A DNA stretch of 44,342 nucleotides from the IMG/VR virus record IMGVR_UViG_2547132254_000004, positions 1 through 44,342 of that record. The stretch is one strand, 5' to 3'. The DNA comes from a virus. Lineage: Duplodnaviria; Heunggongvirae; Uroviricota; Caudoviricetes. Below the pieces are notes generated by a model. The model was not told the origin of the DNA. It searched no databases and saw nothing but the letters and a program-made list of their open reading frames with translations. The position numbers and the translations under genes were made by a program. Positions 1-40,658 of the stretch are shown in pieces (position 1 is the stretch's first letter; each line of letters begins with the position of its first letter).

Positions 1-1209
1 ATGTCGGTTTTTCATAACTGGCTGCTTGATATCGCAAGCGGGAATTACTTTATCTACATCAAACGCCTTTCTGCAAACGACACAGGCGCAACAGGTGGCC
101 ATCAGGTCGGACTTTATATCCCCTCAAATATCGTTGAAAAGCTTTTTCCATCTATCAATCATACTCGCGAACTGAACCCTTCAGTCTTCCTTACTGCGCA
201 TGTATCATCCCATGATTGCCCTGATACCCAAGCACGCGCAATTTATTACAACAACCGTTATTTTGGTAAGACCCGAAACGAAAAAAGAATTACGCGCTGG
301 GGGAGAGGAAGTCCATTACAGAACCCTGAAAATACAGGAGCCCTCACAATTCTTGCTTTCAGGTTAAACGAACAGAACACTGACTGTTCCGAGGTAGATA
401 TATGGGTCTGCGTCAATCCCGATGAAGAGGATATCATCGAGTCTGCTATTGGCGAAATCATACCTGGAACCCTAATTTCCGGCCCTGCCGGACAAATTTT
501 GGGCGGATTGTCTCTTCAGCAAACTCCAGTAAATCATAAATATGTTATTCCTGAAGACTGGAAGAAGCGTTTTCCTTCTGGAAACGAAATTATTCAATAT
601 GCTGCTGGCCATTATGCTAAAAACTCCAAGGATCCAGATGAGCAACTGATTGACCGTCGGCGTGTCGAGTATGATATTTTTCTACTCGTCGAGGAATTAC
701 ATGTTCTTGATATTATTAAGAAAGGGTTCGATTCTGTAGATGAGTTTATTGCATTAGCCAACTCTGTCAGTAATCGACGTAAATCAAGGGCAGGTAAATC
801 ACTTGAACTTCACCTAGAGAAGCTTTTTATCGAGCACGGACTACGGCATTTCTCCACTCAGGCAGTTACTGAAGGTAATAAAAAACCAGATTTCCTGTTT
901 CCTTCAGCAGAGGCATATCATAACGCTGAATTTCCTGTAGAAAACTTACGTATGCTGGCAGTAAAGACCACCTGCAAAGATCGCTGGCGTCAGATACTGA
1001 ATGAAGCAGATAAAATCCATCAGGTACATTTATTTACGCTGCAAGAAGGTGTTTCTTCAGCACAATACCGAGAAATGAAAGATGCGGGTGTCAGACTCGT
1101 TGTACCATCAACTTTACATAAAAAATACCCAGAAGCAGTTAGAGAAGAATTAATAACGCTCGGAGCATTCATTACTGAGCTGATAGAACTTTACACTGAA
1201 CTATCATAG
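1..1209 (+). CDS. ecoRIIR: Type II restriction endonuclease, EcoRII family (CCWGG-type)
   Basis: 402-aa ORF starting at ATG pos 1; N-terminus MSVFHNWLL...YIKRLSANDTGATGGHQVGLYIP and overall length match my recollection of R.EcoRII; convergent with a Dcm-type methyltransferase. Identity from memory, not a search. Confidence 0.85.
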   Translation: MSVFHNWLLDIASGNYFIYIKRLSANDTGATGGHQVGLYIPSNIVEKLFPSINHTRELNPSVFLTAHVSSHDCPDTQARAIYYNNRYFGKTRNEKRITRWGRGSPLQNPENTGALTILAFRLNEQNTDCSEVDIWVCVNPDEEDIIESAIGEIIPGTLISGPAGQILGGLSLQQTPVNHKYVIPEDWKKRFPSGNEIIQYAAGHYAKNSKDPDEQLIDRRRVEYDIFLLVEELHVLDIIKKGFDSVDEFIALANSVSNRRKSRAGKSLELHLEKLFIEHGLRHFSTQAVTEGNKKPDFLFPSAEAYHNAEFPVENLRMLAVKTTCKDRWRQILNEADKIHQVHLFTLQEGVSSAQYREMKDAGVRLVVPSTLHKKYPEAVREELITLGAFITELIELYTELS

Positions 1210-1214
1210 GCTGA

Positions 1215-1237
1215 CTCCCGGCTTAAAAGGCCGGGAG
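1215..1237. terminator. Inverted repeat between the convergent R and M stop codons (possible bidirectional terminator)
   Basis: CTCCCGGC-N7-GCCGGGAG stem in the 34-bp gap between stops at 1209 and 1244; no clear U-tract. Confidence 0.4.
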
Positions 1238-1243
1238 GTGTTC

Positions 1244-2677
1244 TCAAGGCTGCCCAGTCTTACCAGCATCAGCAGAAACAGCTTTGAGGATATAGGGTTC
1301 CAGAAGTCTGGCAACGGCTTCAAATACTGGCACCACAACGGAGTTACCGAACTGCCGATATGACTGAGTATCTGAAACCGGAATACGGAATGGTTTCCCT
1401 CCAGGTTTTTCAAACCCCATAAGGCGTGCGCACTCTCGGGGAGTCAGCCTGCGTGGTCGACGAGCCTGGTTACTCTCATTCATAAAGTCAGCCTCTCCCG
1501 TTGCCATATCCCAACCACGATCAATAAGAATTTCTGATCCGTCTTTGTGATATCTGGCAGAAAGTGTGCGTGCAATGCTTTCCTTATTCTCAGGATTGAC
1601 CAACCCAAAGCCAAAACCATTCCCCTTGGCTGCATGCTTTTTGGCGTAGTTATAAAGGTACTCCCATAGTTTTGGCGTAAGTATATATTTACTGTCGACT
1701 ACAGGCTCCAGCAATTCACCAAATGATGGGCGGTGTTCCGGATAAAAACGACTGATATCACGCAAGGTAAACCCCTTGTGAATATTCAGATCTCGTCTAA
1801 ATCCGACCAGAACAATGCGTTCACGATGCTGAGGCAAAAAATGCTTCCCATCGATAATCTTTGGATCGTTTTTTCCCATTTCTGCAGCATCGGCAACTTC
1901 GTAGCCCAGCTCGTCAAGGGTCTCCATAATGACTTTGAAAGTTTTACCCTTATCATGGCTCTTCAGATTTTTGACATTTTCCAGCACAAAAATTGCCGGT
2001 TTTTTTGCTCGTATAATACGTGCCACGTCAAAAAAAAGTGTTCCTTGTGCTTCACATTCAAAACCATGCGCACGACCAAGTGAGTTTTTCTTACTAACAC
2101 CAGCAAGGCTAAATGGCTGGCACGGGAACCCCGCAAGAAGCACATCATGATCCGGCACATGCTCATCAATATATGCATAAGCATCCGTTTCCAATACATC
2201 GGTTTTATCACTCAGCGTGACTTCCCGAATATCGAGATTGAATTTATGCACCTGTTCATCGTTAAACCAGTTGGCCTTGTATGTACGCACAGCATCTTTA
2301 TTCCATTCACTGGTAAAAACACACTGGCCTCCAATGGCCTCAAAACCTTTCCGTATCCCTCCAATTCCAGCAAATAAGTCAATGAAGCGGAAAGCATATT
2401 CCGGATGGTTTGCAGGTGGTTCTGGTAGCATCTTACGCAGAAGAGACTCTTCTACTGAAGTCAACGATTTTGGTAAACACTTGCCATTAATCCAGCGGTT
2501 AATGGTTTCACGGCTCCACTCATTTTTTCCGACTTTTCTCAGTAATTCAGCCACATACTTCTGATCATAGATTTCCAGCACTTTCTCGATAAGCTTTTTA
2601 TCATTTTCCTGTCGCAGCTTTTCTTCCGCCTCGGCTTCCTTCAGCAGATGCTGTGCCAACACTTCAAATTCAGACAT
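1244..2677 (-). CDS. ecoRIIM: DNA-cytosine C5-methyltransferase, M.EcoRII/Dcm family
   Basis: C5-MTase motifs [26 protein letters not shown]. Start placed at ATG 2677 (MSEFE..., 477 aa) preceded by GGAGG; track ORF extends 14 codons further to 2719. Confidence 0.9.
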
Positions 2678-2984
2678 AATTCCTCCAAGGGGTCTAATGG
2701 GTGAAACTTTATCACTCATTCAACCCAGAAGGAAATGTTTTATCTGGATATTTAAACAGTGACTACAACGTAATCTAGCACTGGTGATGCTTTGTTAGGC
2801 ATAGAGAATCATTCTATATACGACTAATGACAGAAAAACAGCAGACAAGTAGTTTGTTCATAAATTAACGCATACTACGTGCCTACGGTTTTCGAGACCG
2901 GTCCAATCATCAAACGAAACATAAAATTAGCTCACATTATGAGGAAAAGTATCTTTTTTGTACTCTGTAAATTCAAAGGCTTAG

Positions 2985-3971
<987 letters not shown>

Positions 3972-4404
3972 TATTCTCAGCAGGACACCGGTCAGATAGT
4001 GCGGCAGATCAATGTCTGGTGAATATTGATGTCCGCTGCCCGCTGATTCTATTGCCGAAACTGTGCGGGAAAAGATGTGGCAAGATATTGTTGGTAAAAA
4101 ATTCTCAGTGACTTTATGCCAGCAAATCAGTTTACCTGGCATCCAGTATCGTGTGCGGTGGATAATGTCAAAAAACATGGGGAGTCGATTAAACAGGTAT
4201 AATCGTTAAAAACCTTCAAACTCCAGGCAAAACCCTATTTCATAGAACATGTACTTTCATCTGGTATACATGAACGAATTATGACTGCGTTAGTAAAATT
4301 ATCCTGGTTAAATTACAGGCAGAGATATATGTTCCAGTCCAGTGTTTTTTCGTTTACAATATTTATCTTTCATTATCACTTGACTTTATTAAAAGAGGTT
4401 CGTT

Positions 4405-5470
4405 GTGACGAATGTTTTTGGGAAGAGAATATATACCCTGGATGTTCTGAGAGGATTTGCCGCACTTTCCGTTGTGTTATGGCATTGGCAACATTTTTTT
4501 ATGAAAAAGAATGCTGCATCTGACATAATCATAAACCGCCAACCTTTTTATGAATTTTTTCCGTCTTTTATCATTACGGTTTATATGCTGTCGAATTGTT
4601 TTTTATGATTTCTGGATTCATATTTTTTTATCTATACGCTGACAATATACACAGCAATAAAACCTCAGCAAAAACTTTTATAGTTAACCGTGTCAGTAGA
4701 TTATATCCACTTTATATATTTACATTTGCTGTCGTGGCAATATTACAAATTATTTTCTTTAAAAGTCATAATTATTTTTTGTTTATCCTATGAATGACAT
4801 TTACCATGCCATTCTGAATTTATTGATGATTCAATCATGGGGATTTGAGCGAGGTTGGTCCTTCAACGCCCCGACATGGTCCGTGTCGATTGAAGTACTT
4901 ATGTACATGATATTTTTTATATTATGCAAGTTCACATCAAAAACAACATTCATATCAATTTTAATAGTTGCATTATCGTACTACTTTTTCAAAATTAACA
5001 ATCCCATAATGATCGGCGCATTCTCTTTCTTTATTGGTGGTCTGACTTATAAAATTACGATTGCGGCCATAAAAAATATTAGCGCAAAGTTATTTTTTAT
5101 TTTTGCTTGTGTTTTTCTATTGATCTCATGGGGAGTTATATTTACCCTGCAAGTAGCAGATATATTCTCAATTATCTTATTCGGATTTACCTCCATAATC
5201 TTTTTCCTTGTATCAATTAGCGCAATACGAAACGATTTTGGGAAAAAAATTGAATGGTTGGGCGATATCAGTTATTCATCTTATCTTTTACATTTTCCTT
5301 TGCAAATCATTGTTGTTTATTTAGCTGACAAGATTGGCTATGGACGCGATCTTTTTTACAGCCCCAAGGTATTCATTTTATTCATGCTTACATTAATGGC
5401 AATTAGCTATATGTCATATATATTCATTGAAAAACCATCGCAACAATTCATCCGAGATAAATTTCATTAA
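4405..5470 (+). pseudogene. Acyltransferase family 3 (O-antigen/LPS acetylase-like) gene split over three frames
   Basis: Track ORFs 4405-4608, 4596-4793, 4790-5470 lie in three frames and concatenate to ~358 aa with N-terminal LDVLRGFAALSVVLWH and a WSVSIEV motif; highly hydrophobic; both junctions at T6 runs; GTG start at 4405 preceded by AAGAGG; AT-rich. Confidence 0.6.
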
Positions 5471-5488
5471 GTAAAGTCACTTTGCAAT

Positions 5489-5523
5489 GATTAGAGTCAA
5501 CAACTATTACTTTGACTCTAATC
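5489..5523. repeat. Perfect 12-bp inverted repeat (GATTAGAGTCAA-N11-TTGACTCTAATC) between convergent genes
   Basis: Read directly; lies between the acyltransferase stop (5470) and the tail fibre assembly gene stop (5731); no U-tract. Confidence 0.4.
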
Positions 5524-5730
5524 ACACTGCAGTTTATCCGTATGCTCTATATTCATAAAAATCGACATCAATATATAGAATGGAAATAAACGAAACCGCG
5601 TCACATCCTCAATATAGAAGCGTTCAAAGCCTTGCAAACCATTGCGAGGCTTTATGTGTCACAGTTTTGTCCTACTTTTATTACACAAAAAGAATTGAGT
5701 TACAATTAAACCGCTTCTCCTCAACAGACT

Positions 5731-6171
5731 TTACTCAGCGAAGCACGGTTCATCCGGCCACTCAAAATCCGGTGCAATGCTGGTATCTGTTGCCGTCACA
5801 GCCTCGATATAATCCAGCACAACGTTAAGTCGGGTAGTTTCTTCTTGCGTCAGTTTGCGCCCGGCCTGCAGCTTTAACTGAATCACGCTGATATTGGCCA
5901 TTGCTGCGTCTATCAGCGACTGTTTTTTCTGTTCAGCGTCAGCTACCAGTTCATCATGAGAACGTTCCGGAGGGAGCGGCGCAGTAAATACCCCGTCTGA
6001 ATACCCCCAGCCGATTCCGGGATGCTCACTGATATCAGAAATATCAATGAGCTGCTGATTATCCGGCACTGTGAATTCAGCCTCGCCATCCCAGACAATG
6101 ACATTCACAACCATCCCATTTTCAATAACTGCATATGACGCATTCATTATGCAAACTCCTCGATAATACAA
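5731..6171 (-). CDS. Tail fibre assembly protein (Tfa/Mu U-like)
   Basis: 146 aa directly downstream of the tail fibre gene on the minus strand; sequence typical of enterobacterial prophage Tfa proteins. Confidence 0.75.
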
Positions 6172-7073
6172 ATCCCAGCAGCACCTTTCCCGCCTGTCAT
6201 ACTGGTTCCGCTATAACCGGCATCGTATGCGCCACCGCCACCTGAACCATATGCCTTACCACTAACACCACCGCCAGCGCCTGCGCGTCCACCGCCCCCC
6301 CAGTACGATGTTCCGCCTTCACCGCTGACGCCGATATTTCCGGACTGACCGTCGCCTCCATTTCCACCAATGATGTTGATACCGCCAGTACTTGGCACAC
6401 CGCCGTTACCACCGTTCGTGTTTGTGACTCCTGATTTTCCACCACCTTCACCACCAGGGGCTATTACCGATCCGAACGAGCTATCACCGCCCTTGAGGCC
6501 GTTCGTCGCACTAACGCCGCCGGCCCCACCTGCGCCGATAGTGACAGGATAACTATCCTTCGTCAGGATCAGCGTGGTGATTACTGTCCCACCTGCCCCG
6601 CCGCCAGCACCGAAAAACGTTTCATTATTGGATATAGCCTTACAGCCGCCCCCTCCGCCACCGCCGCCCGTTATTGTGACCCTGATCCGTTTTGTTCCTG
6701 GCGTCGGGGTGTACGTACCTGATGACGTGAAAACCCGGGTATTCACCCAGCGTCCCACGTATCCGCTTGTATCCCCCAAACCAAGGTTTTCGAGAGCCGT
6801 TTTCACCGTGCCGTCCGATTTGATATCGCCAAACGGATTCTTGCGGCTTAACAGCAGCGCGCGAAGTGCGGTAAGCAACTGATCGTGCCGCCCCTTCTCC
6901 AGACTGGCACCGGATGCCTCCACAACACTGCAAAGTTCCTCCTGCAACATGTCAAAGTAGTCATCATCCAGATCGGTGGCAGGCGTGCCTGTCTGGGGGT
7001 TACCACGGGTAAAACCGTTCTTACCCGCGCCGAACTTATCCTTTTGCGCGGTTTTCGTGTCTATACGATGCAT
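6147..7073 (-). CDS. Tail fibre protein with glycine-rich repeats
   Basis: 308 aa with ATG start; long GGxGG tracts including a G8 run; last gene of the Mu-like baseplate/fibre block. Confidence 0.75.
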
Positions 7074-7076
7074 GGA

Positions 7077-7661
7077 TTACTCCGGATATTTAAAAATTAC
7101 GTAGGTATGCGACGGGCAGAGTTTGTTAAGCACGCACTCGATAACGGTGTCCCCCCAGATACGCAGTGCGGAATCGCAGGGATCGCCACATGTCATCCAG
7201 GTGGTGTTGGTGGCAGCTGGCATATTGACCTGCCAGTAATACCGCCATTCCGGCGCATTCACCGCGTCAGTACAGGCCGATGAGCAGGTGAACGTGCTTT
7301 TGTCGTATCGCGTGATGGTGGCATCTGGTCTGCCCAGGGCAGCAAGCTGCGCAAGGTAAAAATCCTCATTGATGCCGCCCGCCAGGTTAACCTTCGCATC
7401 CAGCCGTTGCTGACGCTGGCGAAGGGTCTGCGTCCCTGCCGGAATACATTCATCCGGCAGGCCGCACAGACGCTCCCAGCGGTTTATCAGTTCGGTGGTG
7501 GTGCGCGGATCCAGCTCCCGCATCAGGGCATCCGCACGCTGATGAACGCGGGTTAATGACGGTGCCGCACCGGCAATCGCCGGATCGCTGGCTGACCACG
7601 CCGGACCGGGGGGCAACAGTGCCGACAACAGACGGATGTAATCATCGTTTGTCACGTCCAT
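7077..7661 (-). CDS. Mu gp48-like tail protein (YmfQ/DUF2313 type)
   Basis: 194 aa in conserved order between the baseplate J-like gene and the tail fibre; recalled similarity to e14 YmfQ-type proteins. Confidence 0.65.
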
Positions 7662-8710
7662 GAAATCGTCCCCAGTACCGCCAGTTCATTTTTTGCAATG
7701 GAGATATTGTCTGCCGGTGCAAGCAACTGATGGCTGTATTCCCCGTTCGCACCGGAAATCGCCTCACTGATACGCGATACCTTCAGTTCTCCCTGCGGAT
7801 AACCATCACGCAGCAGGAACGAACGCAACTCCGCGGTGATGGCAGCCCGTATTTCCGGTGTGTCCGGCGTCACACGGATATGAAAATCCACCGTATGTGC
7901 CACCGGCCTGAACACATACAAATCAGAGCCTGCCACCGGGGCCAGTGGCCCGATATGTTGTCTTGCCGCCGTTTCCGTTGATTCTTCCGGAATGGGATTA
8001 ATCAGGTCACTGCTGGCAATCATCACACCGACAGTCCCCGTTCCCATCCAGTGTCGGTATGTCCATGCGCGGGTAATGCCAGGCACTTCTTTAGCCCAGA
8101 CGACATAGTCCCCGTCAGCCCCGCCCTGCGGCGTCCAGTAATACCGCTCAATGACGCGGGCGCGCCACGTTTCCAGCTCTTCAGTATCAAATCCGCCTGT
8201 CAGGGTGTCAGCCACACCGGAAGACGGCAGACCATTCACCGGCGTGACCAGGATTAATGCCGTACCGTCGTCAGCGTTACCGACCGCACCTGCACTTGAG
8301 CAGGCGATCGGCACGCGCAGGACACCACCGGAGCTGATTGCATCGTCAGTTGTCGTGTACTGCACCAGGTCATCGCGCTGAATAACACTCCCGGCAGTCA
8401 CCTTCAGGCCATCGCTGACACCTTCCCAGCGCATATACCCGCTGGCAACCGTGGCTCCCTTACGCGGACACCGTTTCATCGCAGCATGTCGCGCCAGCCA
8501 GAACTCATCGCACAGGTCAGGCAGCATGTTCATTGCCAGATAATCGATGTACCCGTAAACCGTATGCAGCGCCGCCGCATACACCTTTGCCCGCACGTCT
8601 TCATCCATGCGCCGGAGCGTGTCGCTGACGTCCAGCCTGGCGAATAAATCGTTACGGAGCATACTGATATTTTCTGCCAGCGTCGGGCGCTGAAATTCAC
8701 TGTCCGCCAT
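7652..8710 (-). CDS. Baseplate J-like protein (Mu gp47-like)
   Basis: 352 aa, translationally overlapping both neighbours; position and sequence consistent with the baseplate J family. Confidence 0.75.
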
Positions 8711-9125
8711 GCGTTATCGCACTCCACAGATCATCAAAAGAAATCATTACCGGTCCGTCACGACGCCAGAGAGTGATACTGTTACCCAGTTCATTAATCC
8801 CGGTGCGGCGGATATCCAGATCAATGCGGGACACCACGCCGTCATCAATCATCCATTGCAGGCATTCGCGGATATACCCCCTTACCGTCTGCACCAGTTG
8901 ATTGGTCAGTTTGCTGCGCTGAAGCAGCCACAGTCGGGAGCCGTAACGGTCATTCTGTACCGCAGGCCAGGTATCCCCCCACCATCCCATCGGGACGTCG
9001 GCATTGTCATCAGGCTCCGCCCGCCGCCAGGTAAACAGGGAAATCACCACGGCGCGGGTCAGCGGATCCAGCGGTGCGCTGGCGCAGGTGCGTTTACCGT
9101 TCACCGTCAGCCACAGTTCCATCAT
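8697..9125 (-). CDS. Mu gp46-like baseplate protein
   Basis: 142 aa in conserved synteny between the gp45-like and gp47-like genes. Confidence 0.6.
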   Translation of the reverse strand: MMELWLTVNGKRTCASAPLDPLTRAVVISLFTWRRAEPDDNADVPMGWWGDTWPAVQNDRYGSRLWLLQRSKLTNQLVQTVRGYIRECLQWMIDDGVVSRIDLDIRRTGINELGNSITLWRRDGPVMISFDDLWSAITHGGQ

Positions 9126-9670
9126 GCCTCCATCGCTTTATCAGGTTTGTCGGTGTTACTGCCCTGACCGTTCTCTCTGTGACGATGCCCGTTATAGGCA
9201 AGCCGCATCGCTGACATGGTGGTGCCGCCGGAGTCGCACAGGTCTTTCACCTGTCCGGTCACTTCAAGGTCCATTTCAAAACGTGCTTCAGGTGCATTGC
9301 GAAACGTGATCGTTTTACCTGCACCGTCCACCACGATCCCCTCCCGGGTCAGCGTCACGGACTGCCCCTGATCGTCATAGACAGCCACCTCACCCGTCTG
9401 CAGCCCTTTCAGGCGGTAGCGCCGGTCCGACACCGTAACAACCACCGCATGAGAACGATCGCCATCCGGAAACAACACCACCGCTTCCGCACCGCTGTTT
9501 GCCCTTGCGGTAAAACCGTAGGGTTCAAGATGTTCAACCCCGGCTTTGGGTTCACCGGCAATCAGGGACACATCCACGGTCTGACATTTCGTGGCGGCAC
9601 TGATGCTTTTCACCACGGCCCGCCCAATCAGGCCGAGGAGTTGTCGCTGCATGGCTTCAATCGTCCTCAT
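9122..9670 (-). CDS. Baseplate assembly protein V / spike (Mu gp45-like)
   Basis: 182 aa in conserved synteny; overlapping stop/start with neighbours. Confidence 0.65.
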   Translation of the reverse strand: MRTIEAMQRQLLGLIGRAVVKSISAATKCQTVDVSLIAGEPKAGVEHLEPYGFTARANSGAEAVVLFPDGDRSHAVVVTVSDRRYRLKGLQTGEVAVYDDQGQSVTLTREGIVVDGAGKTITFRNAPEARFEMDLEVTGQVKDLCDSGGTTMSAMRLAYNGHRHRENGQGSNTDKPDKAMEA

Positions 9671-10749
9671 CAGAACGGGTCCTCCTGTACTCTGGCTTTT
9701 TTCTTTTTCCGCGCGCCGGGGGCTTCGGGTTCAGGCAGATAAGCATCAGGTGGGCCGACTCGGATTTCCGTCAGGGTGCCGTTCTGGTCCTGAGTAAACG
9801 TGACTTCCGAGACAAGCAGTTCGGTATTGTCGAAACCACAGACCGGATCGAAGACAATCACCCGCTGGTTGGGCTGCCACAGCGTACCGTTACCCTGTCG
9901 CCAGCCCTGCACCACATAGGTGGTTTCATCCGTCCGCGCCGCCCGTTGCCGGGCTTCAAAGTCCGCACGGGCAATACAGCCTGCCCCCGTAGCCTGCCCT
10001 GTCTGCCTGATATACATCGGACGGTAACGGGCAATAAATGCGTCTTCTGTGCGGGCCCGCAGCGCGGTGGTGGTGGCCTCACCGAAATCATCGTCATTTC
10101 CGGCACGCTGCCCCGCCACCTGGTAAACTGAAAACCGCTCCCGGATACTCTTCTCCGTATCGCAGGAAAGGATGTTTTCCCCAAGTACCAGCGCGGTATG
10201 TGCCCGCGTTGAGCCAATACCGCCAATCACTAGCCTGCCGTGCGGGTCGTCGTAAGCCAGCGCCTGCTGCTGACCGAGTATTTTGTTGATCACCTCAATC
10301 ACCGTTTCACCGTGATCAGGCTGGACATCAGGAATAACACCAGACGGCGCACCGCTGTTCACCACCTCAATGCCGAAAGGCGCAGCAAGCGCCTGCGCAA
10401 TCTGAACCAGCGATCGTCCGTTAAACTGTGTCGGTTCGGCTGCACAGTCAATCAGGTCAGCGGTCAGACTACGCCCAGCAATACCGGTGCTGACCGAACG
10501 GGCATCGTAACGAACGGGAGTCGCCTCCACCCAGCCGGTGATCACCAGCTCATCACCAATCAGCACTTCCACTTTTGAACCGTTTTTAATACGCGGCTGA
10601 AGCGTGGTGATACCCTCATCTCCCGGCCACTGGCGGGTGATCTCCACACTGAAATCCCGCGTCAGCCGTTCAATACCGGCACCGATGCGCACCGATGTCC
10701 AGCCATTCCACTCCCGGCCATTTACCCGTAGCGTGACTTTATCATTCAT
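9670..10749 (-). CDS. Mu P (gp44)-like tail/baseplate hub protein
   Basis: 359 aa following the DNA circularisation gene in Mu order. Confidence 0.6.
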   Translation of the reverse strand: MNDKVTLRVNGREWNGWTSVRIGAGIERLTRDFSVEITRQWPGDEGITTLQPRIKNGSKVEVLIGDELVITGWVEATPVRYDARSVSTGIAGRSLTADLIDCAAEPTQFNGRSLVQIAQALAAPFGIEVVNSGAPSGVIPDVQPDHGETVIEVINKILGQQQALAYDDPHGRLVIGGIGSTRAHTALVLGENILSCDTEKSIRERFSVYQVAGQRAGNDDDFGEATTTALRARTEDAFIARYRPMYIRQTGQATGAGCIARADFEARQRAARTDETTYVVQGWRQGNGTLWQPNQRVIVFDPVCGFDNTELLVSEVTFTQDQNGTLTEIRVGPPDAYLPEPEAPGARKKKKARVQEDPF

Positions 10750-12074
10750 AGCACTGGCACCTTCAGAGGGATCACCGGCACAAAGCCGGGATGCGTAATG
10801 GCATTACGCCGGATAATGTCCGCGTCACGCGCCGCGTTATCAAACCAGGTCGCCGCCAGCACCAGCGCGGGTAAGACCTCATCCGGCGTGCGCTGAATGA
10901 TCCGTGCAGACTGTTCAAGGCGCGTGTTGATATCCGCATTCAGATCTGCTTTCACCCGGCGCAGCGCCAGAAACAGCGCATCACTGGTTGTACGGGACAA
11001 CTCCTTATCAATTGCCGTATTCAGTGTGTCGCGAATGTCAGTCAGTTCTTCCCACGTCGGCAGGTCAACCGTGTTTTTCACCGCCGGTGCATTGTTCAGT
11101 GCCGGATGCGTGACGGAAGGCCAGTCGGTGCTCTGCGCGGGTGTTGTTGACTGCCCCACTGCGGCATTCTGCATCACCGCGGAAATTGTTGGCGCAGGCA
11201 ATCGGGTGATGGCATACGCTGCTTCGCTGATTGCGGTCGTACGAAGGGTGCTGGCAACCACGTTACGCTGCTGCGTTGCCGTGACGGTGGTTTTACTGTC
11301 CGTTTTCCAGACGCCGCGCGGTTGCAGATCGCTGCCGAGGCTGACACCAGAAAGCGTTTTGATCATGGTGACCAGGTCGCTGGCGTTACCATAAAGGCGC
11401 TTCCCGGTACGCCACATTTTCTGCACCTGCTCAACGAAATTTTTTCCTGACGATGGCGGCGGCAGAAGTACCGAGATATCCCCCTGCAACAGCCTGGCGG
11501 CATCCGATACGGCAGAATCCACCACTTTCATCGCATCAGAAACATACCCCAGCATTGTGCTGGCATTACCGATAACGTCGTTCTGTACGAAATCCGCCAC
11601 GCCATCGATACTGAAACCACTGAAGCTGTCACTGATGCAGTCATCCAGCGCAGAACAGGATGACATCAGCGTCTGCGCCGTCGCCGCGCCTGATGTGGGG
11701 TAAGAGAGTTCTCCCGCTTCGACAAACTTCAGGTCAAAGCGGACAATACGCCCTTCACTCTTCGATGTGCTGACCCGAACTTCCCCGTCAACACAGACTT
11801 TCAGCTCACCGTATGTCGGGTGGACAAGCGTGCCGGGACCGGGTTTATTCAGCGCTTCAATCAGGCGATCACGCTGGTCAAAGCAGTCATCTCCCACCAC
11901 ATAAGCCGTGATGGACGGGCGGAAAGTGATTTTCCCCAGGTCTTCGGTATAGGGTTTGTCGCGGTTCGGGTATTCGTGTGTTTCCACACGGCGACCGGTT
12001 CCCGCACTTTCTTCTTCAACCTTAAACGGCACGCCGCGAAATGACGCGTCCTGAAGTCTGTCTTTCCACGTCAT
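10746..12074 (-). CDS. DNA circularisation protein N (Mu gpN-like)
   Basis: Start placed at ATG 12074 (MTWKDRLQDASFRGVPFKVEEE...) with GGAG 7 nt upstream; the track extension to 12116 translates a terminator hairpin. Confidence 0.7.
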   Translation of the reverse strand: MTWKDRLQDASFRGVPFKVEEESAGTGRRVETHEYPNRDKPYTEDLGKITFRPSITAYVVGDDCFDQRDRLIEALNKPGPGTLVHPTYGELKVCVDGEVRVSTSKSEGRIVRFDLKFVEAGELSYPTSGAATAQTLMSSCSALDDCISDSFSGFSIDGVADFVQNDVIGNASTMLGYVSDAMKVVDSAVSDAARLLQGDISVLLPPPSSGKNFVEQVQKMWRTGKRLYGNASDLVTMIKTLSGVSLGSDLQPRGVWKTDSKTTVTATQQRNVVASTLRTTAISEAAYAITRLPAPTISAVMQNAAVGQSTTPAQSTDWPSVTHPALNNAPAVKNTVDLPTWEELTDIRDTLNTAIDKELSRTTSDALFLALRRVKADLNADINTRLEQSARIIQRTPDEVLPALVLAATWFDNAARDADIIRRNAITHPGFVPVIPLKVPVL

Positions 12075-12087
12075 ATAAACTCCGGAT

Positions 12088-12113
12088 ATAAAAAAACCCG
12101 CCGAAGCGGGTTT
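12088..12113 (-). terminator. Rho-independent terminator downstream of the lipoprotein moron
   Basis: Minus-strand reading GAAACCCGC-TTCG-GCGGGTTT followed by a T7 run, 14 nt upstream of the gpN start. Confidence 0.6.
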
Positions 12114-12127
12114 CATTAAATTATCGC

Positions 12128-12805
12128 TTATCTAAAGTTACTTATTACCCGATACCTTATGCTTTGGTTACTCGCATCAAGTACTTCGAATTTAGCCCCT
12201 TTATAGCCAATTGTTTTAGACTCCGCGAGATCATACTCAACATCGTTGTTGAAGGCCGGGCGTGCTGTATTCGATGAAAATTCACGATATCCAATGTTGA
12301 TTTTGTTTCCGACCCTTCCGTTGTAAAGCAGAGCTTGCTGGAAAGATGAATCACCACTGATATTCAGAGTAACCTTTTCGATAGGCATGTTAGTTTCACA
12401 GTTGGTAACACCGAAAACTGTTATTACACATAAGGCATTCTTTTTCTTTTCTACCATGATGCCCTGCCACATATCGGCAAGGGCTGCCTTTTCCACATTG
12501 GCTGAATCAGCACCGTTTGTGAGAAAGTAATAATCAGCCTTGTTATCCTCACCAACCTTTTTCAGCATCCCCGGAGTGATCGTATACGCCCAGGAAATTC
12601 TCGCAGGAGCATTAACCTTCAGACCTTCAAACCTCTGTGACACCCCCTGCTTAATCATTGAATCACCGACATAAGCTGTATTAATGCTTCCTACAGGAGG
12701 TTCACTATAATTTTCTGTTTTTGGTAAATAATTGTACTTCGGAGAGGTACATCCCCCGAGTAAAAGAGCCATGCCGACAACTGAATAAATTGTTAAGACT
12801 TTCAT
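12128..12805 (-). CDS. Predicted lipoprotein, function unknown (moron inside the tail operon)
   Basis: Start placed at ATG 12805 (MKVLTIYSVVGMALLLGGC...) preceded by a purine-rich RBS; signal peptide with LLGGC lipobox; 225 aa; AT-rich by eye; sits between tape measure and gpN, a junction normally contiguous in Mu-like tail clusters. Confidence 0.6.
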   Translation of the reverse strand: MKVLTIYSVVGMALLLGGCTSPKYNYLPKTENYSEPPVGSINTAYVGDSMIKQGVSQRFEGLKVNAPARISWAYTITPGMLKKVGEDNKADYYFLTNGADSANVEKAALADMWQGIMVEKKKNALCVITVFGVTNCETNMPIEKVTLNISGDSSFQQALLYNGRVGNKINIGYREFSSNTARPAFNNDVEYDLAESKTIGYKGAKFEVLDASNQSIRYRVISNFR

Positions 12806-12886
12806 ATCCCTATTCCCATCATTAAAGTATCGGACTAATCCTACCAAGAACCTGCTAAACGACAAAACCCGTGTTTAAGCGGGGTA

Positions 12887-14728
12887 TCAGCCCCCCATAC
12901 CAAATCGGGTGTAGCCAACGTCGTGATTCACGTCGATACCGCTGGATCGCGTTTCCATAACCCGCATACCCGGAGGCGAATTCACAAAAGATACCTTGAT
13001 CTCACCATCAACTTTTGGCGCAGAAGCTTTGTTAATCATGAAGGGATTCGGGCCTGTGGCATTAGAGGCGTTGTTTGACTGAGCCGGATCCACCGCCGGA
13101 TAAGGTGTGTATCCCCGCGCCGGTATTCCCGTCCCATAAGCATCATAAGCACCCGCGCCCCACTGCGCCGAGTTAATGGCATCGACCGTGTCACCGGAAC
13201 TGTCGGTAAGCCACTCAATAATTGGCTTCAGCTTGTCCCACATATCCTGAAACCACTTAACAACCGGCCCCCAGTTATTGATCACCATCCCCAGCGGCGA
13301 CCAGGCAAAAACTTTCTTAAGGAGTTCCCAGCCAGCCTCAAAATAAGGACCAATGGTTTCCCAGAGCTTCTTGAAATAAGGTCCGACAACATCCCAGTTA
13401 GTGATAATTAATCCCGCAGCCAGGGCTATCGCCGTCGCAATCATGCCAATCGGCGTCATCGACATGATCCTGCTGACAATACTGATGGCACTGCCCACGC
13501 CCATCAATCCCAGTTTCAGAATCGCAAGACCGGCAGCAAGCCCGACGACGCCGCGAATAACCCGGGGATTTTCATCCGCAAACTTCGTGAATTTTTCCCC
13601 CAATTCCCCCAGCCATTGCGTGATATTTTTGGCGTCACCAGAAAATACGCCGCCAATAGCCGCAAGGCCGTTAGTTGCGGTCCCCGTCATTGCCTCCCAC
13701 AGGTTGGACAGCGTACCAAGCTGTGCCTGAACACGTTTATTCAGGCTGGCCTGTTTATTCATCTTCTGCTGGATCTGATCGTAGCCATCCTTTCCTTTAT
13801 CGATTAGTGCATTGACCACCTGAAGGGTTTCGGCATCATCACCAAATATTGCCTTAAGTACACCTGTTCGCTTAACGTCGGTCAGTTTTCGCAGCTTTGC
13901 CAGTTGCCTGAACATGTTATCAAGACCGCCAAAACTTCCTTTGCCGTCAGTAAAATCGAGCTGTACCCCGAGTTTCTGGCGGGCCATAACTTTATTAACG
14001 TCTCTGATTTTCTTAACGCTTAACCCGGACTGGATAACTTTTCGCAGGGCATTACCTGCCGACTCCCCGTTCATCCCCATCTGATCCATCATGACGCTGA
14101 TGGGAGCAAGGCTCTGTGCAGCCTGAAGACCGTCCTTATTCACCATCTTCAGAACAGAACTGGTTTTAGTGAAGAAGGACAACATGTTGGTATCGTCAAC
14201 GCCCAGATAAAACGCCTTCTGGATAGTGTCGAACAGCCCCATCATGTCTTCTGACGCCGTTCCGGTAGCATCCTGCATCTTTGCAGCAAACTCAGCAGCC
14301 GCTTCCGGTGTTTTTTTCAGTTGTACCGCAAGATAAGCTGTCGCTTTACCCACACCACCCAGAATGTTTTCTGCCGGGATCCCCTGACGCACCAGCATCT
14401 GCATCATGTTCTGGAAATCAGCCGTTGTACCGGGTAGCTGGTTACCCAGGCCAATAGCCAGTTTATTGATGTCCTGAAAGCGCTTTCCAACCTCGCCGTT
14501 CGCATCCATCATGGCGACTTTCAGCCCGGTGGCGGCGTTTTCCTGATCGGCATAAGATTTCAGGGAAAGCGTCAGACCCGCTGCCAGTCCGCCACCAAGC
14601 GCCAGCCCACCCTGTGACGCTTCTTCCGCCTGGCGTTTAAATCCCCGGATTTTCTTTTGCATTTTCGACAGCGCGGGAGAAAGCCTGTCGACACCGGTGA
14701 TCAACGCCTTAAGCTCAAATTCAGCCAT
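12887..14728 (-). CDS. Tail tape measure protein
   Basis: 613 aa, Ala/Gly/Leu-rich with hydrophobic segments, directly downstream of the frameshifted chaperone pair. Confidence 0.85.
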   Translation of the reverse strand: MAEFELKALITGVDRLSPALSKMQKKIRGFKRQAEEASQGGLALGGGLAAGLTLSLKSYADQENAATGLKVAMMDANGEVGKRFQDINKLAIGLGNQLPGTTADFQNMMQMLVRQGIPAENILGGVGKATAYLAVQLKKTPEAAAEFAAKMQDATGTASEDMMGLFDTIQKAFYLGVDDTNMLSFFTKTSSVLKMVNKDGLQAAQSLAPISVMMDQMGMNGESAGNALRKVIQSGLSVKKIRDVNKVMARQKLGVQLDFTDGKGSFGGLDNMFRQLAKLRKLTDVKRTGVLKAIFGDDAETLQVVNALIDKGKDGYDQIQQKMNKQASLNKRVQAQLGTLSNLWEAMTGTATNGLAAIGGVFSGDAKNITQWLGELGEKFTKFADENPRVIRGVVGLAAGLAILKLGLMGVGSAISIVSRIMSMTPIGMIATAIALAAGLIITNWDVVGPYFKKLWETIGPYFEAGWELLKKVFAWSPLGMVINNWGPVVKWFQDMWDKLKPIIEWLTDSSGDTVDAINSAQWGAGAYDAYGTGIPARGYTPYPAVDPAQSNNASNATGPNPFMINKASAPKVDGEIKVSFVNSPPGMRVMETRSSGIDVNHDVGYTRFGMGG

Positions 14729-14903
14729 GTGTGCGTTTCTCCTGCTCTATCCTGTTTGCCTGACTGACCAGTAAGGGAATTTCACTGATCGGCATATTCA
14801 GCAATTCGAAAGGATTAATGCGCCAGTAGCTGGCGCAGTCAAAGAAGCGATCAGTGAGGTATTCAGCCGTCAGGCCTGGAGGAAAAAACCGGCCACAAGC
14901 CAC
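14721..14903 (-). CDS. Tail assembly chaperone frameshift extension (GT-like -1 frame)
   Basis: ORF overlaps the 3' end of the upstream chaperone ORF; the overlap contains the slippery heptamer U UUU UUC (minus strand, 14882-14888), so translation likely enters by -1 frameshift rather than from the track ATG. Confidence 0.55.
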   Translation of the reverse strand: MACGRFFPPGLTAEYLTDRFFDCASYWRINPFELLNMPISEIPLLVSQANRIEQEKRTHG

Positions 14904-15139
14904 GCCGCTGCATTCAGGTCTGCCGGAGACATCTGGTCGACAGAGCTTTGCGGCACTTTCGCCAGCCGCACAATGTATTTCGACACCACATGCGCCAGAA
15001 GTCTGACGGACTCATCCTGATTCATCTGGTAGGGATACCCCAGCTCGCGGACATCCTTCCCGGTGGGCTCATCAAACTCCAGTACGGAGAGTGTCTCGCC
15101 ATGAGCAGTAATCGGTTTCTTTAACTCAAGCTCTTTCAT
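14870..15139 (-). CDS. Tail assembly chaperone (lambda G-like / Mu gp41-like)
   Basis: 89 aa between tail tube and tape measure; ends ...LVAGFFLQA just past the slippery site. Confidence 0.6.
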   Translation of the reverse strand: MKELELKKPITAHGETLSVLEFDEPTGKDVRELGYPYQMNQDESVRLLAHVVSKYIVRLAKVPQSSVDQMSPADLNAAAWLVAGFFLQA

Positions 15140-24691: not shown

Positions 24692-24731
24692 TCCTGGTTA
24701 AATTTCATTTTTCGCGGGTATAAAAAACGAT

Positions 24732-27402: not shown

Positions 27403-28092
27403 ATGCTCATTCCAACATCTCTATCAAAACAACCAGTAATCGAAGCTGCTTTCGAAATGCGTTTTTCTAAAGAAACACAAATATCGGAAATAGTTCCAGG
27501 GTTTCTTTTTCACGCTCTAGGTTGTACAAAACCAGTAATTAGTTTACCACCCAGTCAAATACCTAAAAATGTTCGTGAGGGAGATGAACAATTACATTAC
27601 GCAGTTGTCAGTCGCCTCGAAATCGAAGGGTACTATATTGGACTAAGTGACCATGGTGTTGTTGTATCCACCAGCACCAAATATCAAGGGTGGAGTCATT
27701 TTAGAGAAAAAATCATTCATGTATTAAATGAGCTTAACAAATTAAATTTAAATGACAACATCATCCGCTACTCATTAAAGTATGTAGATTTTTTCCCAAA
27801 AGAAGACGATTCTAATTTATTTGATAAGCTAAACGTCAGCTTAAATATGGCTGGCGAGTCTATGTCTAATTATCCGATCAATATCAGAATCGATAAAAAT
27901 GAAGGCGCATTTCTAAATATAATTCAAATATTATCTCATGCTTTAGTCATGTCAGATAATGGAGAATTTAATAAAAAAGGACTAATCCTAGACATAGACA
28001 GCATTAGGCAAATCACTAATACTGATGAAATAGATAAGTTTAAAAACGAACCAAAAAAATTCTTGATGATCTTCACTCCTGTAATAAATTAG
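27403..28092 (+). CDS. Hypothetical protein P1 of the AT-rich Q-S cassette
   Basis: 229-aa ATG ORF; AT-rich; opposite strand to all flanking phage genes; N-terminus KQPVIEAAFEMRF vaguely recalls the uncharacterised TIGR04255-type family (uncertain). Confidence 0.5.
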   Translation: MLIPTSLSKQPVIEAAFEMRFSKETQISEIVPGFLFHALGCTKPVISLPPSQIPKNVREGDEQLHYAVVSRLEIEGYYIGLSDHGVVVSTSTKYQGWSHFREKIIHVLNELNKLNLNDNIIRYSLKYVDFFPKEDDSNLFDKLNVSLNMAGESMSNYPINIRIDKNEGAFLNIIQILSHALVMSDNGEFNKKGLILDIDSIRQITNTDEIDKFKNEPKKFLMIFTPVIN

Positions 28093-28514: not shown

Positions 28515-28748
28515 ATGAGTAATAACATTTTTGATATCGAGAAATTCAAAGATCAAATTCCATATTATTTAACAGCTCATCAAAAAGAAGGGCTAATAAA
28601 TGCACTTAGAGATTTCCCTGAAAACACTAACTACTACCTTAGCAATTATCATGATGATCTGAAAAATGCTGCACTCCAGGGAGATATATTTAAGGAGCTT
28701 ACAGTATATTCAATTAAAGGGACTAAAAAACACGAGGCATTATATTAA
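28515..28748 (+). CDS. Hypothetical protein P3 of the Q-S cassette
   Basis: 77 aa; TAA-GTG-ATG junction with P2 suggests translational coupling. Confidence 0.45.
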   Translation: MSNNIFDIEKFKDQIPYYLTAHQKEGLINALRDFPENTNYYLSNYHDDLKNAALQGDIFKELTVYSIKGTKKHEALY

Positions 28749-28792
28749 GCAACAGTTGCGATATAGATACAAGTAATAATCGTGATGTGCCA

Positions 28793-29128
28793 ATGCGTGC
28801 AGTCTTTGCTCCGTTAGTAAGTTTATCTAAGTTCGAAGCTATTCTTCTCTCCAACGGAGTTTCTAAGACTTCAATAGATAGCAAAATTGATGCTATAAGG
28901 AAGCAGTTAATTACTAATATTTTTTATCTTCCTGAATCAGACAACTTAGAAGAATGCATCGTTTTTCTTGATGATGTATACCAATTACCAACGGAAGAAT
29001 TACAAAAACTCTTGAATGATAAATGCAAAGCCATAACTTTAAGTCAAGTTGGTTTCTACATTTTACTATTCAAAATATCTATTCACTTTTGTAGATTCCA
29101 TGAAAACATACAACGATTCGATCATTAA
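28793..29128 (+). CDS. Hypothetical protein P4 of the Q-S cassette
   Basis: 111 aa from ATG 28793 (track starts at GTG 28787); followed by an intrinsic terminator. Confidence 0.4.
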   Translation: MRAVFAPLVSLSKFEAILLSNGVSKTSIDSKIDAIRKQLITNIFYLPESDNLEECIVFLDDVYQLPTEELQKLLNDKCKAITLSQVGFYILLFKISIHFCRFHENIQRFDH

Positions 29129-39663: not shown

Positions 39664-40036
39664 TGCTTTGCAGCCAGCTGGTACCGCAGGAATTTGCTTT
39701 TGAAGCGTTAATGCATGATGCAACAGAAGCGTATTGCCAGGACATCCCGGCTCCACTGAAACGCCTTCTTCCTGACTATAAACGGATGGAAGAAAAAATA
39801 GACGCCGTAATCCGTGAGAAATACGGGTTACCCCCGGTTATGAGTACACCCGTGAAATATGCCGATCTCATCATGCTGGCAACCGAACGCCGCGATCTCG
39901 GGCTTGATGATGGCTCTTTCTGGCCTGTGCTGGAAGGTATCCCGGCAACAGAGATGTTCAACGTGATTCCACTGGCTCCAGGCCATGCCTACGGGATGTT
40001 TATGGAACGCTTTAACGAATTATCGGAGTTACGCAA

Positions 40037-40399
40037 ATGCGCATAAATGTTTTCGAAATGGAAGGGTTTCTTCGCGGGAAATGTGTACCGCAAGATCTGA
40101 AAGTGAACGAAACAAATGCTGAGTACCTGGTACGTAAATTCGACGCGCTTGAAGCTAAATGTGCGGCACTGGAAAGCAAAATAATACCAGTGTCAGCTGA
40201 ACTGCCACCAGCAAATGAAAGTGTTCTGTTATTTGATGCTAACGGAGAAGGCTGGCTGATTGGCTGGCGTTCTCTCTGGTACACCTGGGGACAAAAAGAA
40301 ACCGGAGAATGGCAGTGGACATTTCAGGTCGGGGACCTTGAAAACGTCAATATCACTCACTGGGCAGTAATGCCGAAAGCACCAGAGACTAAGAAATGA
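40037..40399 (+). CDS. yfdS: YfdS-like prophage protein
   Basis: 120 aa with ATG start and GGAG RBS, immediately after the yfdR-like gene. Confidence 0.45.
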   Translation: MRINVFEMEGFLRGKCVPQDLKVNETNAEYLVRKFDALEAKCAALESKIIPVSAELPPANESVLLFDANGEGWLIGWRSLWYTWGQKETGEWQWTFQVGDLENVNITHWAVMPKAPETKK

Positions 40400-40611
40400 G
40401 CGTGATAAAAACTCATACAGGAATTGTTATCACCCGAGACGGTGAAAAGCGGATGAAATTACATTCCACTGAAACGTCCTGGGTTGCCGGACGTTGTGAA
40501 TCCTACGACAAAAAGACTGGTTACCGTTGGGGGGCACCTAACATGCGTCGCCGTCTGCTACTGGACAGCATCAGGCCAATAAAACAGGTAGCAACCAGGG
40601 AACAAAATTAA
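40396..40611 (+). CDS. Small hypothetical protein (YfdT-position)
   Basis: 71 aa overlapping the upstream stop by 4 nt. Confidence 0.35.
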   Translation: MSVIKTHTGIVITRDGEKRMKLHSTETSWVAGRCESYDKKTGYRWGAPNMRRRLLLDSIRPIKQVATREQN

Positions 40612-40658
40612 TTATCAGGACTGGAATTTGATATTACTGCCCGTGTGCAGCGGGCTAA

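What the first reader, a model, noticed from the sequence alone, without database searches (positions are those of the whole stretch)
4405..5470. Acyltransferase-3 (O-antigen acetylase-like) gene broken by two frameshifts at T6 runs
Three consecutive ORFs in three frames together give a typical ~358-aa membrane acyltransferase. Both breaks sit at T6 homopolymers (around 4599-4604 and 4775-4780). Options are real slipped-strand phase variation of a serotype-conversion gene, pseudogenisation, or homopolymer sequencing error.
Basis: seen in the sequence. Interest (0 to 1): 0.45.

Follow-up and report, generated by a model that had tools for sequence, protein, structure and literature searches.

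The report
Broken prophage acyltransferase gene, one break doubtful
This is an ordinary E. coli prophage gene for a membrane sugar-acetylating enzyme; one single-base loss in a run of T's looks like a real recent mutation, and the second break is most likely a sequencing miscount of another T run, so there is no sign of a programmed on/off switch.

Summary
Window 4405-5470 is one gene. It encodes a 355-aa stand-alone Acyl_transf_3 (AT3) membrane O-acyltransferase and sits as cargo between a GIY-YIG gene and the tail-fibre genes of an SfV/e14-like E. coli prophage at ssrA.

It is split into three ORFs by two 1-nt losses in T7 tracts. The true lesions are at 4555-4560 and 4775-4780. Adding one T to each tract gives a protein identical to WP_000185984.1.

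An independent assembly of the same strain (GCA_000194295.2) has 0 SNPs over 15 kb. It shares T6 at 4555 but has T7 at 4775, and A7 where the window has A6 in the neighbouring GIY-YIG gene. A Logan contig with the same haplotype agrees. Against its nearest other relative the window shows 6 contractions of A/T runs of 7 or more, no expansions, and only 7 SNPs.

Verdict: the first frameshift is a real, recent inactivating mutation. The second is most likely a homopolymer undercall in this assembly.

Across public E. coli assemblies all four T7 tracts carry +1 or -1 alleles on several haplotypes. The number of tracts matches codon-composition expectation, and other copies are killed by an IS1 insertion or other deletions. 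That pattern fits slippage hot spots in a dispensable gene rather than designed phase variation. Interest is low.

The parts
4405..5470 (+). Whole acyltransferase (AT3, Acyl_transf_3) gene. It is 1066 nt here and 1068 nt (355 aa) when intact.
   Evidence: The restored product is identical to WP_000185984.1.
4405..4608 (+). Fragment 1 (67 aa). It has the GTG start and about 51 native residues, including the R16-X10-H27 motif, followed by about 15 out-of-frame residues and a stop.
   Evidence: The same 67-aa product is called on 6 Logan contigs.
4555..4560 (+). Lesion 1: a T6 tract where intact copies have T7 (gene nt 151-157, codons Phe51-Phe52). This is the true site of the first frameshift and is probably a real mutation.
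   Evidence: It is shared by the same-strain assembly L066 and by L019. The nearest relatives L057, L058 and L061 have T7.
4599..4604 (+). It is not a lesion, because intact homologues also have T6 here.
   Evidence: alignment, columns 219-226.
4596..4793 (+). Fragment 2 (65-aa ORF). It carries the native residues from about 65 to 124, including FMISG and R96-x-x-R99.
4775..4780 (+). Lesion 2: a T6 tract where intact copies have T7 (gene nt 372-378, Phe125-Phe126). It is probably an assembly undercall.
   Evidence: It is T7 in the same-strain assembly L066 and in the identical-haplotype contig L019.
4790..5470 (+). Fragment 3 (226 aa), the C-terminal two thirds of the enzyme.
   Evidence: The exact sequence occurs on at least 36 public contigs that carry a frameshift upstream.
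4494..4500 (+). T7 tract (gene nt 90-96), intact in the window. It is T6 in the complete genomes of DS26-1 and EH09-18-41.
4623..4629 (+). T7 tract (gene nt 220-226), intact in the window. Other assemblies carry T6 or T8 here.
   Evidence: L013, L015.
3081..3971 (+). Neighbouring LEM-3-like GIY-YIG gene. A 1-nt loss in the A tract at 3809-3814 (A6, versus A7 elsewhere) replaces its C-terminus and extends the ORF from about 3853 to 3971.
   Evidence: The tract is A7 in the same-strain assembly L066.

Best explanation
The locus is a single lysogenic-conversion-type cargo gene. It encodes a 355-aa stand-alone AT3 (Acyl_transf_3) integral-membrane O-acyltransferase. It lies between a GIY-YIG gene and the tail-fibre assembly gene, near the ssrA-proximal end of an SfV/e14-like (Mu-type baseplate) E. 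coli prophage.

By family analogy the intact enzyme moves an acyl group from cytoplasmic acyl-CoA through its membrane pore onto a surface glycan, probably O-antigen. That step is inferred and the substrate is unknown.

In this strain the gene is dead. A recent slippage event shortened the T7 tract at 4555-4560 to T6. This separates the TMH1 R-X10-H catalytic motif from the rest of the protein. This lesion is supported by two independent sequences.

The second 1-nt loss, at 4775-4780, is most likely not biological. I read it as a homopolymer undercall specific to the assembly from which the window was taken, like the A6 in the neighbouring GIY-YIG gene. The four other one-base contractions of A/T runs in the window are probably undercalls too, although two of them are alleles that also circulate naturally in unrelated samples.

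Across E. coli the four T7 tracts in the first 380 nt are ordinary slippage hot spots. They arise from Phe-Phe codons in a 32% GC membrane-protein gene, and they repeatedly inactivate this dispensable gene.
For: Identity of the gene.
- Pfam PF01757 scores 87.3 bits against a cut-off of 31.
- PHROG 3333 matches at E=1e-40.
- The restored protein is identical to WP_000185984.1.
- The R16-X10-H27 and R96-x-x-R99 motifs are present. PMC9833829 defines these motifs and reports them as essential.

Genomic context.

Lesion sites.

Lesion 1 looks real.
- L066 (GCA_000194295.2) matches window 1-15073 with 0 mismatches and also has T6 at 4555.
- L019 matches window 3826-5807 with 0 mismatches and has T6 at 4555.
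- The lineage-specific 442-aa protein ties L066 to the window's strain.
- The nearest relatives, at 2 SNPs per 15 kb, have T7.

Lesion 2 looks like an artefact.
- Both L066 and L019 have T7 at 4775.
- The only other difference between the window and L066 is A6 versus A7 at 3809.
- Against GCA_008304165.1 the window has 7 SNPs, one poly-C length difference at 3925-3932 where the window is longer (C8 vs C7), and 6 one-base contractions of A/T runs of 7 or more, with no expansions of A/T runs.
- All clean A/T-run indels against six references go in the same direction.
- Natural alleles at these tracts go both ways, T6 and T8.
- The fragment products caused by the contractions at 28725 and 42337 are found in Logan SRR063736. 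They are not found in the same strain's other data set SRR387483 or in the NCBI assembly.

Hot-spot reading.
- +1 or -1 alleles occur at gene nt 90, 151, 220 and 372 on several SNP backgrounds.
- The gene has 5 tracts of 7 or more, against 4.5 expected from synonymous shuffles (P=0.50).
Against: No reads were available, so no tract length is directly verified.

The sequencing platforms of SRR063736 and SRR387483 are unknown. How the .2 assembly was corrected is also unknown, and I could not identify the window's exact source record.

Logan contigs from SRR063736 reproduce the window's states at 24722, 28053, 28725 and 42337 exactly. Those four contractions are therefore present in at least one raw data set. 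The alleles at 28053 (229-aa product) and 28725 (77-aa product) also occur in several unrelated samples, so not every contraction in the window need be an error.

Natural multi-hit pseudogenes of this gene exist: L063 has GG at nt 838, T8 at nt 372 and an IS1 insertion, and L018 has T6 at nt 151 and GG at nt 838. A real second hit is therefore not implausible in itself.

The disagreement of the .2 assembly at 28053, 28725 and 42337 is only indirect. It rests on the absence of called fragment products.
Confidence: 0.62

Rival explanations
1. Both frameshifts are real. The window would come from an isolate or sub-culture in which an already dead gene took a second slippage hit, along with similar hits in other AT-rich cargo genes, for example in a mismatch-repair-deficient or long-decaying lineage. 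On this reading it is a genuine two-hit pseudogene.
For: Natural multi-hit copies exist: L063 and L018. T6 at nt 372-378 is a naturally occurring allele on other haplotypes, including a MEGAHIT metagenome contig (L006, L007, L011, L012). Logan SRR063736 contigs reproduce four other contractions of the window. Two of those alleles circulate in unrelated samples.
Against: The same-strain assembly L066 and the identical-haplotype contig L019 both have T7 at 4775. All 6-7 indels private to the window are contractions, whereas natural alleles are split between +1 and -1. Private indels are about as numerous as private SNPs (6 versus 7 in about 35 kb), which is far from normal divergence. The restored protein has no amino-acid change.
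Confidence: 0.2
2. Both frameshifts are sequencing errors and the gene is intact in the living strain.
For: The window shows a general tendency to undercall long A/T runs. Restoring both T's gives a protein with no substitutions. The nearest relatives are intact.
Against: T6 at 4555 survives in the revised assembly GCA_000194295.2, which differs from the window at the two other tracts within the same 1 kb. It also appears in L019 from a different run accession. The same T6 allele occurs on three further haplotypes in other samples.
Confidence: 0.1
3. The gene is a genuine slipped-strand contingency locus. Its T7 tracts would switch O-acetylation on and off, and the window would capture an OFF phase.
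For: All four 5'-proximal T7 tracts show both T6 and T8 alleles. Some pairs sit on identical SNP haplotypes: L007 and L008, L010 and L011, L013 and L015. About 6-12% of copies in unselected samples are broken, and more in one tail-fibre-matched set. Two sequences of one strain differ at 4775. A hypervariable poly-C tract lies upstream at 3925-3932.
Against: The number of tracts equals the synonymous-shuffle expectation (P=0.50). The tracts are only 7 nt long, and several of them spread over 380 nt is not the usual single-switch layout. The window's two hits sum to -2, so neither one alone restores function. Other copies are inactivated irreversibly by a 7-nt deletion, a 2-nt deletion, GGG to GG, or an IS1 insertion. 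Intergenic runs nearby vary just as much, which points to relaxed constraint. No within-population read evidence is available.
Confidence: 0.06

Closest known systems
Stand-alone AT3 O-antigen acetyltransferases of temperate phages (Oac of Shigella phage Sf6 and the OacB/C/D group), as reviewed in PMC9833829
   Same: It has a single Acyl_transf_3 domain of about 330-360 aa and no SGNH domain. It carries the R-X10-H motif in TMH1 and the RXXR motif at TMH3. It is carried as prophage cargo at the edge of the element, beside the tail-fibre and attachment region.
   Different: Similarity to deposited phage proteins is only distant. The best tblastn hit in the phage collection is 38% identity to an uncultured faecal phage contig, and E. 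coli phage TL-2011b O-acetyltransferase is 26.5% identical. The substrate and any serotype effect are untested. In the window the gene is frameshifted.
WP_000185984.1 'acyltransferase family protein' of E. coli prophages
   Same: The restored sequence is 100% identical. The neighbours are the same (GIY-YIG gene, tail-fibre assembly gene) in AR_0369, NIST0056 and others.
   Different: The window lacks one T in each of two T7 tracts, so no full-length product is encoded.
Homopolymer-length errors in assemblies that fragment genes (for example the problem addressed by Kastor, PMC12007338)
   Same: The changes are single-base contractions confined to long A/T runs. They disagree with another assembly of the same strain and break otherwise perfectly conserved genes.
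   Different: One of the two lesions in this gene (4555-4560) is reproduced by independent sequences and so appears to be real. The platform behind the window is unknown.
Slipped-strand phase-variable surface-glycan acetyltransferase genes of Neisseria and Haemophilus (recalled from my own knowledge, not tested here)
   Same: A surface-glycan acyltransferase carries intragenic repeat tracts whose length varies among isolates and shifts the reading frame.
   Different: Here the tracts are short (7 nt), multiple, and not enriched over codon expectation. They sit alongside irreversible lesions in other copies. No switching within a population has been shown.

Membership tests
Acyl_transf_3 (AT3, PF01757) stand-alone O-acyltransferase | Match to the family profile above the curated threshold across the whole domain | tested here: met
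   For the restored 355-aa protein, PF01757 scores 87.3 bits against a cut-off of 31, covering residues 10-334. PHROG 3333 matches at E=1.4e-40.
Acyl_transf_3 (AT3, PF01757) stand-alone O-acyltransferase | R-X10-H motif in TMH1 and RXXR motif at TMH3, which PMC9833829 reports as essential | tested here: met
   R16-GFAALSVVLW-H27 and R96-VS-R99 are present in the restored sequence. In the window they lie on two different fragments, separate from the C-terminal 226 aa.
Acyl_transf_3 (AT3, PF01757) stand-alone O-acyltransferase | Ten-TMH architecture with no fused SGNH domain | tested here: inconclusive
   The length of 355 aa and a single Pfam domain argue for a stand-alone AT3. A crude hydropathy scan shows many hydrophobic segments but does not resolve the number of helices. 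No structure was predicted.
Acyl_transf_3 (AT3, PF01757) stand-alone O-acyltransferase | Uninterrupted reading frame, giving a functional enzyme | tested here: not met
   The window has three ORFs in three frames. The same-strain assembly still carries one frameshift.
Acyl_transf_3 (AT3, PF01757) stand-alone O-acyltransferase | Acetylates O-antigen and converts serotype | not testable with these tools
   This needs LPS chemistry or serology with the intact allele.
Slipped-strand (simple-sequence-repeat) phase-variable contingency gene | An intragenic repeat tract whose length varies by +1 or -1 among isolates and shifts the frame | tested here: met
   T6, T7 and T8 alleles occur at gene nt 90, 151, 220 and 372 on several haplotypes.
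Slipped-strand (simple-sequence-repeat) phase-variable contingency gene | The tract is longer or more frequent than composition predicts, a sign of selection for mutability | tested here: not met
   There are 5 runs of 7 or more, against 4.5 +/- 1.6 expected from synonymous-codon shuffles (P=0.50). All the T tracts are Phe-Phe codons.
Slipped-strand (simple-sequence-repeat) phase-variable contingency gene | Reversible, high-frequency ON/OFF switching within a clonal population | not testable with these tools
   No reads are available. The only same-strain comparison differs at 4775, but it also differs at an unrelated A tract in the neighbouring gene.
Homopolymer sequencing or assembly artefact | Disagreement with an independent sequence of the same strain | tested here: met
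   This is met for 4775-4780 and for 3809-3814, which are T7 and A7 in L066; L019 also has T7 at 4775. It is NOT met for 4555-4560, which is T6 in both.
Homopolymer sequencing or assembly artefact | Directional bias confined to long runs | tested here: met
   All 6-7 clean indels against the references and the nearest relative are -1 changes in A/T runs of 7 or more, with none at +1 in an A/T run.
Homopolymer sequencing or assembly artefact | Read pile-ups that show the true tract length | not testable with these tools

The most novel reading that the evidence does not exclude
The four T7 tracts in the 5' third of this prophage acyltransferase gene might act as a low-rate, multi-site contingency switch. 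It would let E. coli lysogens turn a surface-glycan acetylation on and off under phage or immune pressure, possibly together with the hypervariable poly-C tract at 3925-3932 upstream. On this reading, the T6/T7 difference at 4775 between two sequences of one strain would be real population heterogeneity.
Probability: 0.07. Interest if true: 0.5.

Novelty: already known. Interest (0 to 1): 0.15.

Why it matters
Mainly as a caution. A 'two-hit phase-variable serotype gene' turns out to be one genuine recent frameshift plus one probable homopolymer miscount. The same window carries similar one-base contractions that break or alter four other AT-rich cargo genes. Annotating this record at face value would therefore overstate pseudogene content.

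There is a smaller biological point. This prophage acetyltransferase is inactivated again and again in E. coli at Phe-Phe T7 tracts. Some public 'intact' annotations, the 396-aa products in DS26-1 and EH09-18-41, are in fact frameshift fusions that lack the catalytic R-X10-H motif.

Tried and rejected
- Near-identity search against deposited phage genomes found nothing. A protein-level search gave only distant hits of 38% identity or less.
- I searched for the exact double-T6 configuration in IMG/VR and in the GTDB representative genomes and found no match.
- My first working hypothesis was that every contraction in the window is a long-read-type artefact. I softened this after finding the same fragment alleles in Logan assemblies of the same strain and of unrelated samples. 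I then refined it using the same-strain assembly L066.
- I tried to reach the 24-29 kb part of GCA_000194295.2 or SRR387483 through look-ups of the 114-aa, RusA, TerS and capsid proteins. These proteins are too common and the target contigs were not shown.
- A literature search for the accession, run or strain found nothing.
- The promoter and terminator scan gave no more hits than chance.
- The window's private substitutions looked like ordinary mosaic divergence and gave no platform signature.

Full report
**What is in the sequence.** Window 4405-5470 holds three consecutive ORFs in three frames: 4405-4608 (67 aa), 4596-4793 (65 aa) and 4790-5470 (226 aa). Megablast against complete E. coli genomes finds the region in 51 records at 97-99.7% identity. 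There it is annotated as a single 1068-nt 'acyltransferase family protein'. The alignment shows that the window lacks exactly two bases, one T in each of two tracts that are T7 in intact copies. The tracts lie at window 4555-4560 and 4775-4780. It merely sits where the shifted frame reaches its stop codon. Adding one T to each tract gives a 355-aa protein identical to WP_000185984.1, with only two synonymous differences from strain AR_0369.

**What the gene is.** The restored protein matches Pfam Acyl_transf_3 (PF01757) at 87.3 bits against a cut-off of 31, over residues 10-334. It also matches PHROG 3333 'O-acetyltransferase' at E=1e-40. It carries the two motifs that PMC9833829 describes as conserved and essential in AT3 proteins, R-X10-H in TMH1 (R16...H27) and RXXR at TMH3 (R96-VS-R99). 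It has no SGNH domain, so it is a stand-alone AT3 like the phage Oac enzymes. Its similarity to anything in deposited phage genomes is 38% or less, and its substrate is unknown. The gene is cargo in an SfV/e14-like prophage with a Mu-type baseplate, integrated at ssrA or in some strains at icd. It lies between a LEM-3-like GIY-YIG gene and the tail-fibre assembly gene. The slot is variable, and strain HCM-21C-2 carries other cargo there. In the window's broken form the R-X10-H motif, the RXXR motif and the C-terminal two thirds lie on three separate fragments, so no functional enzyme can be made.

**Is the damage real? First pass.** Against six related prophages, every clean indel in well-aligned sequence is a one-base contraction of an A/T run of 7 or more in the window. 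The sites are 3809-3814 (A6, in the GIY-YIG gene), 4555, 4775, 24722 (intergenic), 28053, 28725 and 42337. There is no expansion of an A/T run against all references. These contractions alter or split five genes. That pattern suggested systematic homopolymer undercalling.

**Complication.** Exact look-ups showed that several of the resulting protein fragments exist in public assemblies. Logan contigs from run SRR063736 are 100% identical to window 17403-37665 and 39639-44342, including the run lengths at 24722, 28053, 28725 and 42337. So that run comes from the same strain and reproduces those four states. The 229-aa and 77-aa fragment alleles also occur in several unrelated samples. Such alleles therefore circulate naturally as well.

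**Decisive comparison.** NCBI assembly GCA_000194295.2 (contig AEZP02000004.1, locus L066) matches window 1-15073 with zero mismatches and exactly two gaps. It has A7 at 3809-3814 and T7 at 4775-4780, and it shares T6 at 4555-4560. A 442-aa protein that carries a substitution private to this lineage is found only in that assembly and in Logan run SRR387483, plus one place not shown. L066 is therefore the same strain. A 1983-bp Logan contig from SRR22535156 (L019) equals window 3826-5807 with zero mismatches, again with T6 at 4555 and T7 at 4775. The nearest other genomes, at 2 SNPs per 15 kb, have T7, T7 and A7 and an intact 355-aa gene. Against GCA_008304165.1 the window differs over about 35 kb by 7 SNPs, by six one-base contractions, and by one poly-C length difference. 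The fragment products caused by the contractions at 28725 and 42337 are listed for SRR063736. They are not listed for SRR387483 or for the NCBI assembly. This indirectly suggests that the other data for this strain do not share them.

**Inference.** The first frameshift, T6 at 4555-4560, is reproduced by two independent sequences and is absent from the closest relatives. It is most likely a real and very recent inactivating slippage mutation. The second, T6 at 4775-4780, is contradicted by both independent sequences. It comes with an identical type of discrepancy 960 nt upstream in the neighbouring gene. It is most likely a homopolymer-length error in the assembly from which the window was taken. 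I cannot verify this without reads. The sequencing platforms are unknown, and my suspicion that the 2010-era run SRR063736 is pyrosequencing data rests only on recollection.

**Phase variation.** Public assemblies carry T6 or T8 at gene nt 372-378, T6 or T8 at nt 220-226, T6 at nt 151-157 on four haplotypes, and T6 at nt 90-96. Some T6/T8 pairs sit on identical SNP backgrounds, and the GIY-YIG gene in those contigs is intact. One carrier is a MEGAHIT short-read metagenome contig. These events are therefore recurrent and largely real. Broken copies make up 3 of 50 in complete genomes, 1 of 8 in IMG/VR, and 4 of 10 in a set matched by tail-fibre protein.

Several observations argue against a designed switch.
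- The gene has 5 runs of 7 or more, against 4.5 expected from synonymous-codon shuffles (P=0.50). Every T tract is a Phe-Phe pair in a 32% GC membrane-protein gene.
- Nearby intergenic runs vary just as freely.
- Other copies are killed irreversibly by a 7-nt deletion, a 2-nt deletion, GGG to GG at nt 838, or an IS1 insertion. Some copies accumulate several hits.
- The window's two losses sum to -2, which does not restore the frame.

The better reading is mutational hot spots in a dispensable cargo gene under weak or fluctuating selection.

**Verdict.** This is a known, widely annotated prophage AT3 acyltransferase gene. In this strain it is a recent single-frameshift pseudogene, and the window's record adds a probable homopolymer undercall. 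The novelty is nil and the interest is low. The residual novel reading, a low-rate multi-tract contingency switch, has a probability of about 0.07.

Noticed in passing
window 3081-3971 (A tract 3809-3814): The neighbouring LEM-3-like GIY-YIG gene is frameshifted by A7 to A6 near its 3' end. This swaps its last 14 residues for a 53-residue extension. The tract is A7 in the same-strain assembly GCA_000194295.2 and in all 18 or more other loci examined. The 313-aa frameshifted product nevertheless exists as a public protein record (UPI00030ED9BD).
   Followed up: yes
window 3925-3932 (poly-C) and 3956-3963 (A8): An intergenic poly-C tract about 475 nt upstream of the acyltransferase start is hypervariable among strains, from roughly C5 to C10, in short-read assemblies. 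The adjacent A run is A7 or A8. I did not examine whether the poly-C tract affects expression of the downstream gene.
   Followed up: partly
window 27403-28092, 28515-29128, 42052-42830, 24722-24727: There are four more one-base contractions of A runs. The TIGR04255-family gene is truncated to 229 aa from 249. A 204-aa hypothetical is split into a 77-aa ORF (28515-28748) and a 113-aa ORF (28787-29128), which the Logan gene caller on the identical SRR063736 contig starts 2 codons later (111 aa). A 259-aa hypothetical is split into 98 aa plus 155 aa. One intergenic A7 is shortened to A6. Logan SRR063736 reproduces all four. The 229-aa and 77-aa alleles also occur in unrelated samples.
   Followed up: partly
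L034 (NZ_CP035879.1) and L035 (NZ_CP063503.1); corresponds to window 4281-4523 and 4494-4500: In strains DS26-1 and EH09-18-41 a T7 to T6 change at gene nt 90-96 fuses an upstream out-of-frame ORF to the acyltransferase. The result is a 396-aa CDS annotated as intact, but it lacks the native N-terminus and the R-X10-H motif. These are likely mis-annotated pseudogenes.
   Followed up: yes
L003 (NZ_CP081794.1) and NZ_CP081704.1: Strains CT01 and AH02 each have a 43.7-kb circular 'plasmid' record that is the same prophage as a chromosomal copy in the same genome. This suggests that the excised or replicating phage was assembled separately. The CT01 circular copy differs from the chromosomal copy by a GGG to GG frameshift in the acyltransferase.
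   Followed up: partly
window 1-2719; L006, L009, L059, L025: The prophage end beyond the GIY-YIG gene is a swap-site for defence cargo. The window has an EcoRII-like restriction endonuclease and a cytosine methyltransferase. Other strains carry HEPN/GmrSD, DUF6650 or HEPN_RiboL-PSP genes. In one strain the acyltransferase slot itself holds a recombinase remnant and a ClpP gene.
   Followed up: no
window 40838-42010 and 43101-44342: Two integrase genes lie at the right end of the window, with the split 259-aa hypothetical between them. This may mean that the window spans the prophage plus part of an adjacent integrative element.
   Followed up: no
NZ_CP027140.1 (AR_0369), about 1056238-1057305 and 3226636-3227703: Strain AR_0369 carries two copies of the intact acyltransferase gene in two different prophages.
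   Followed up: no
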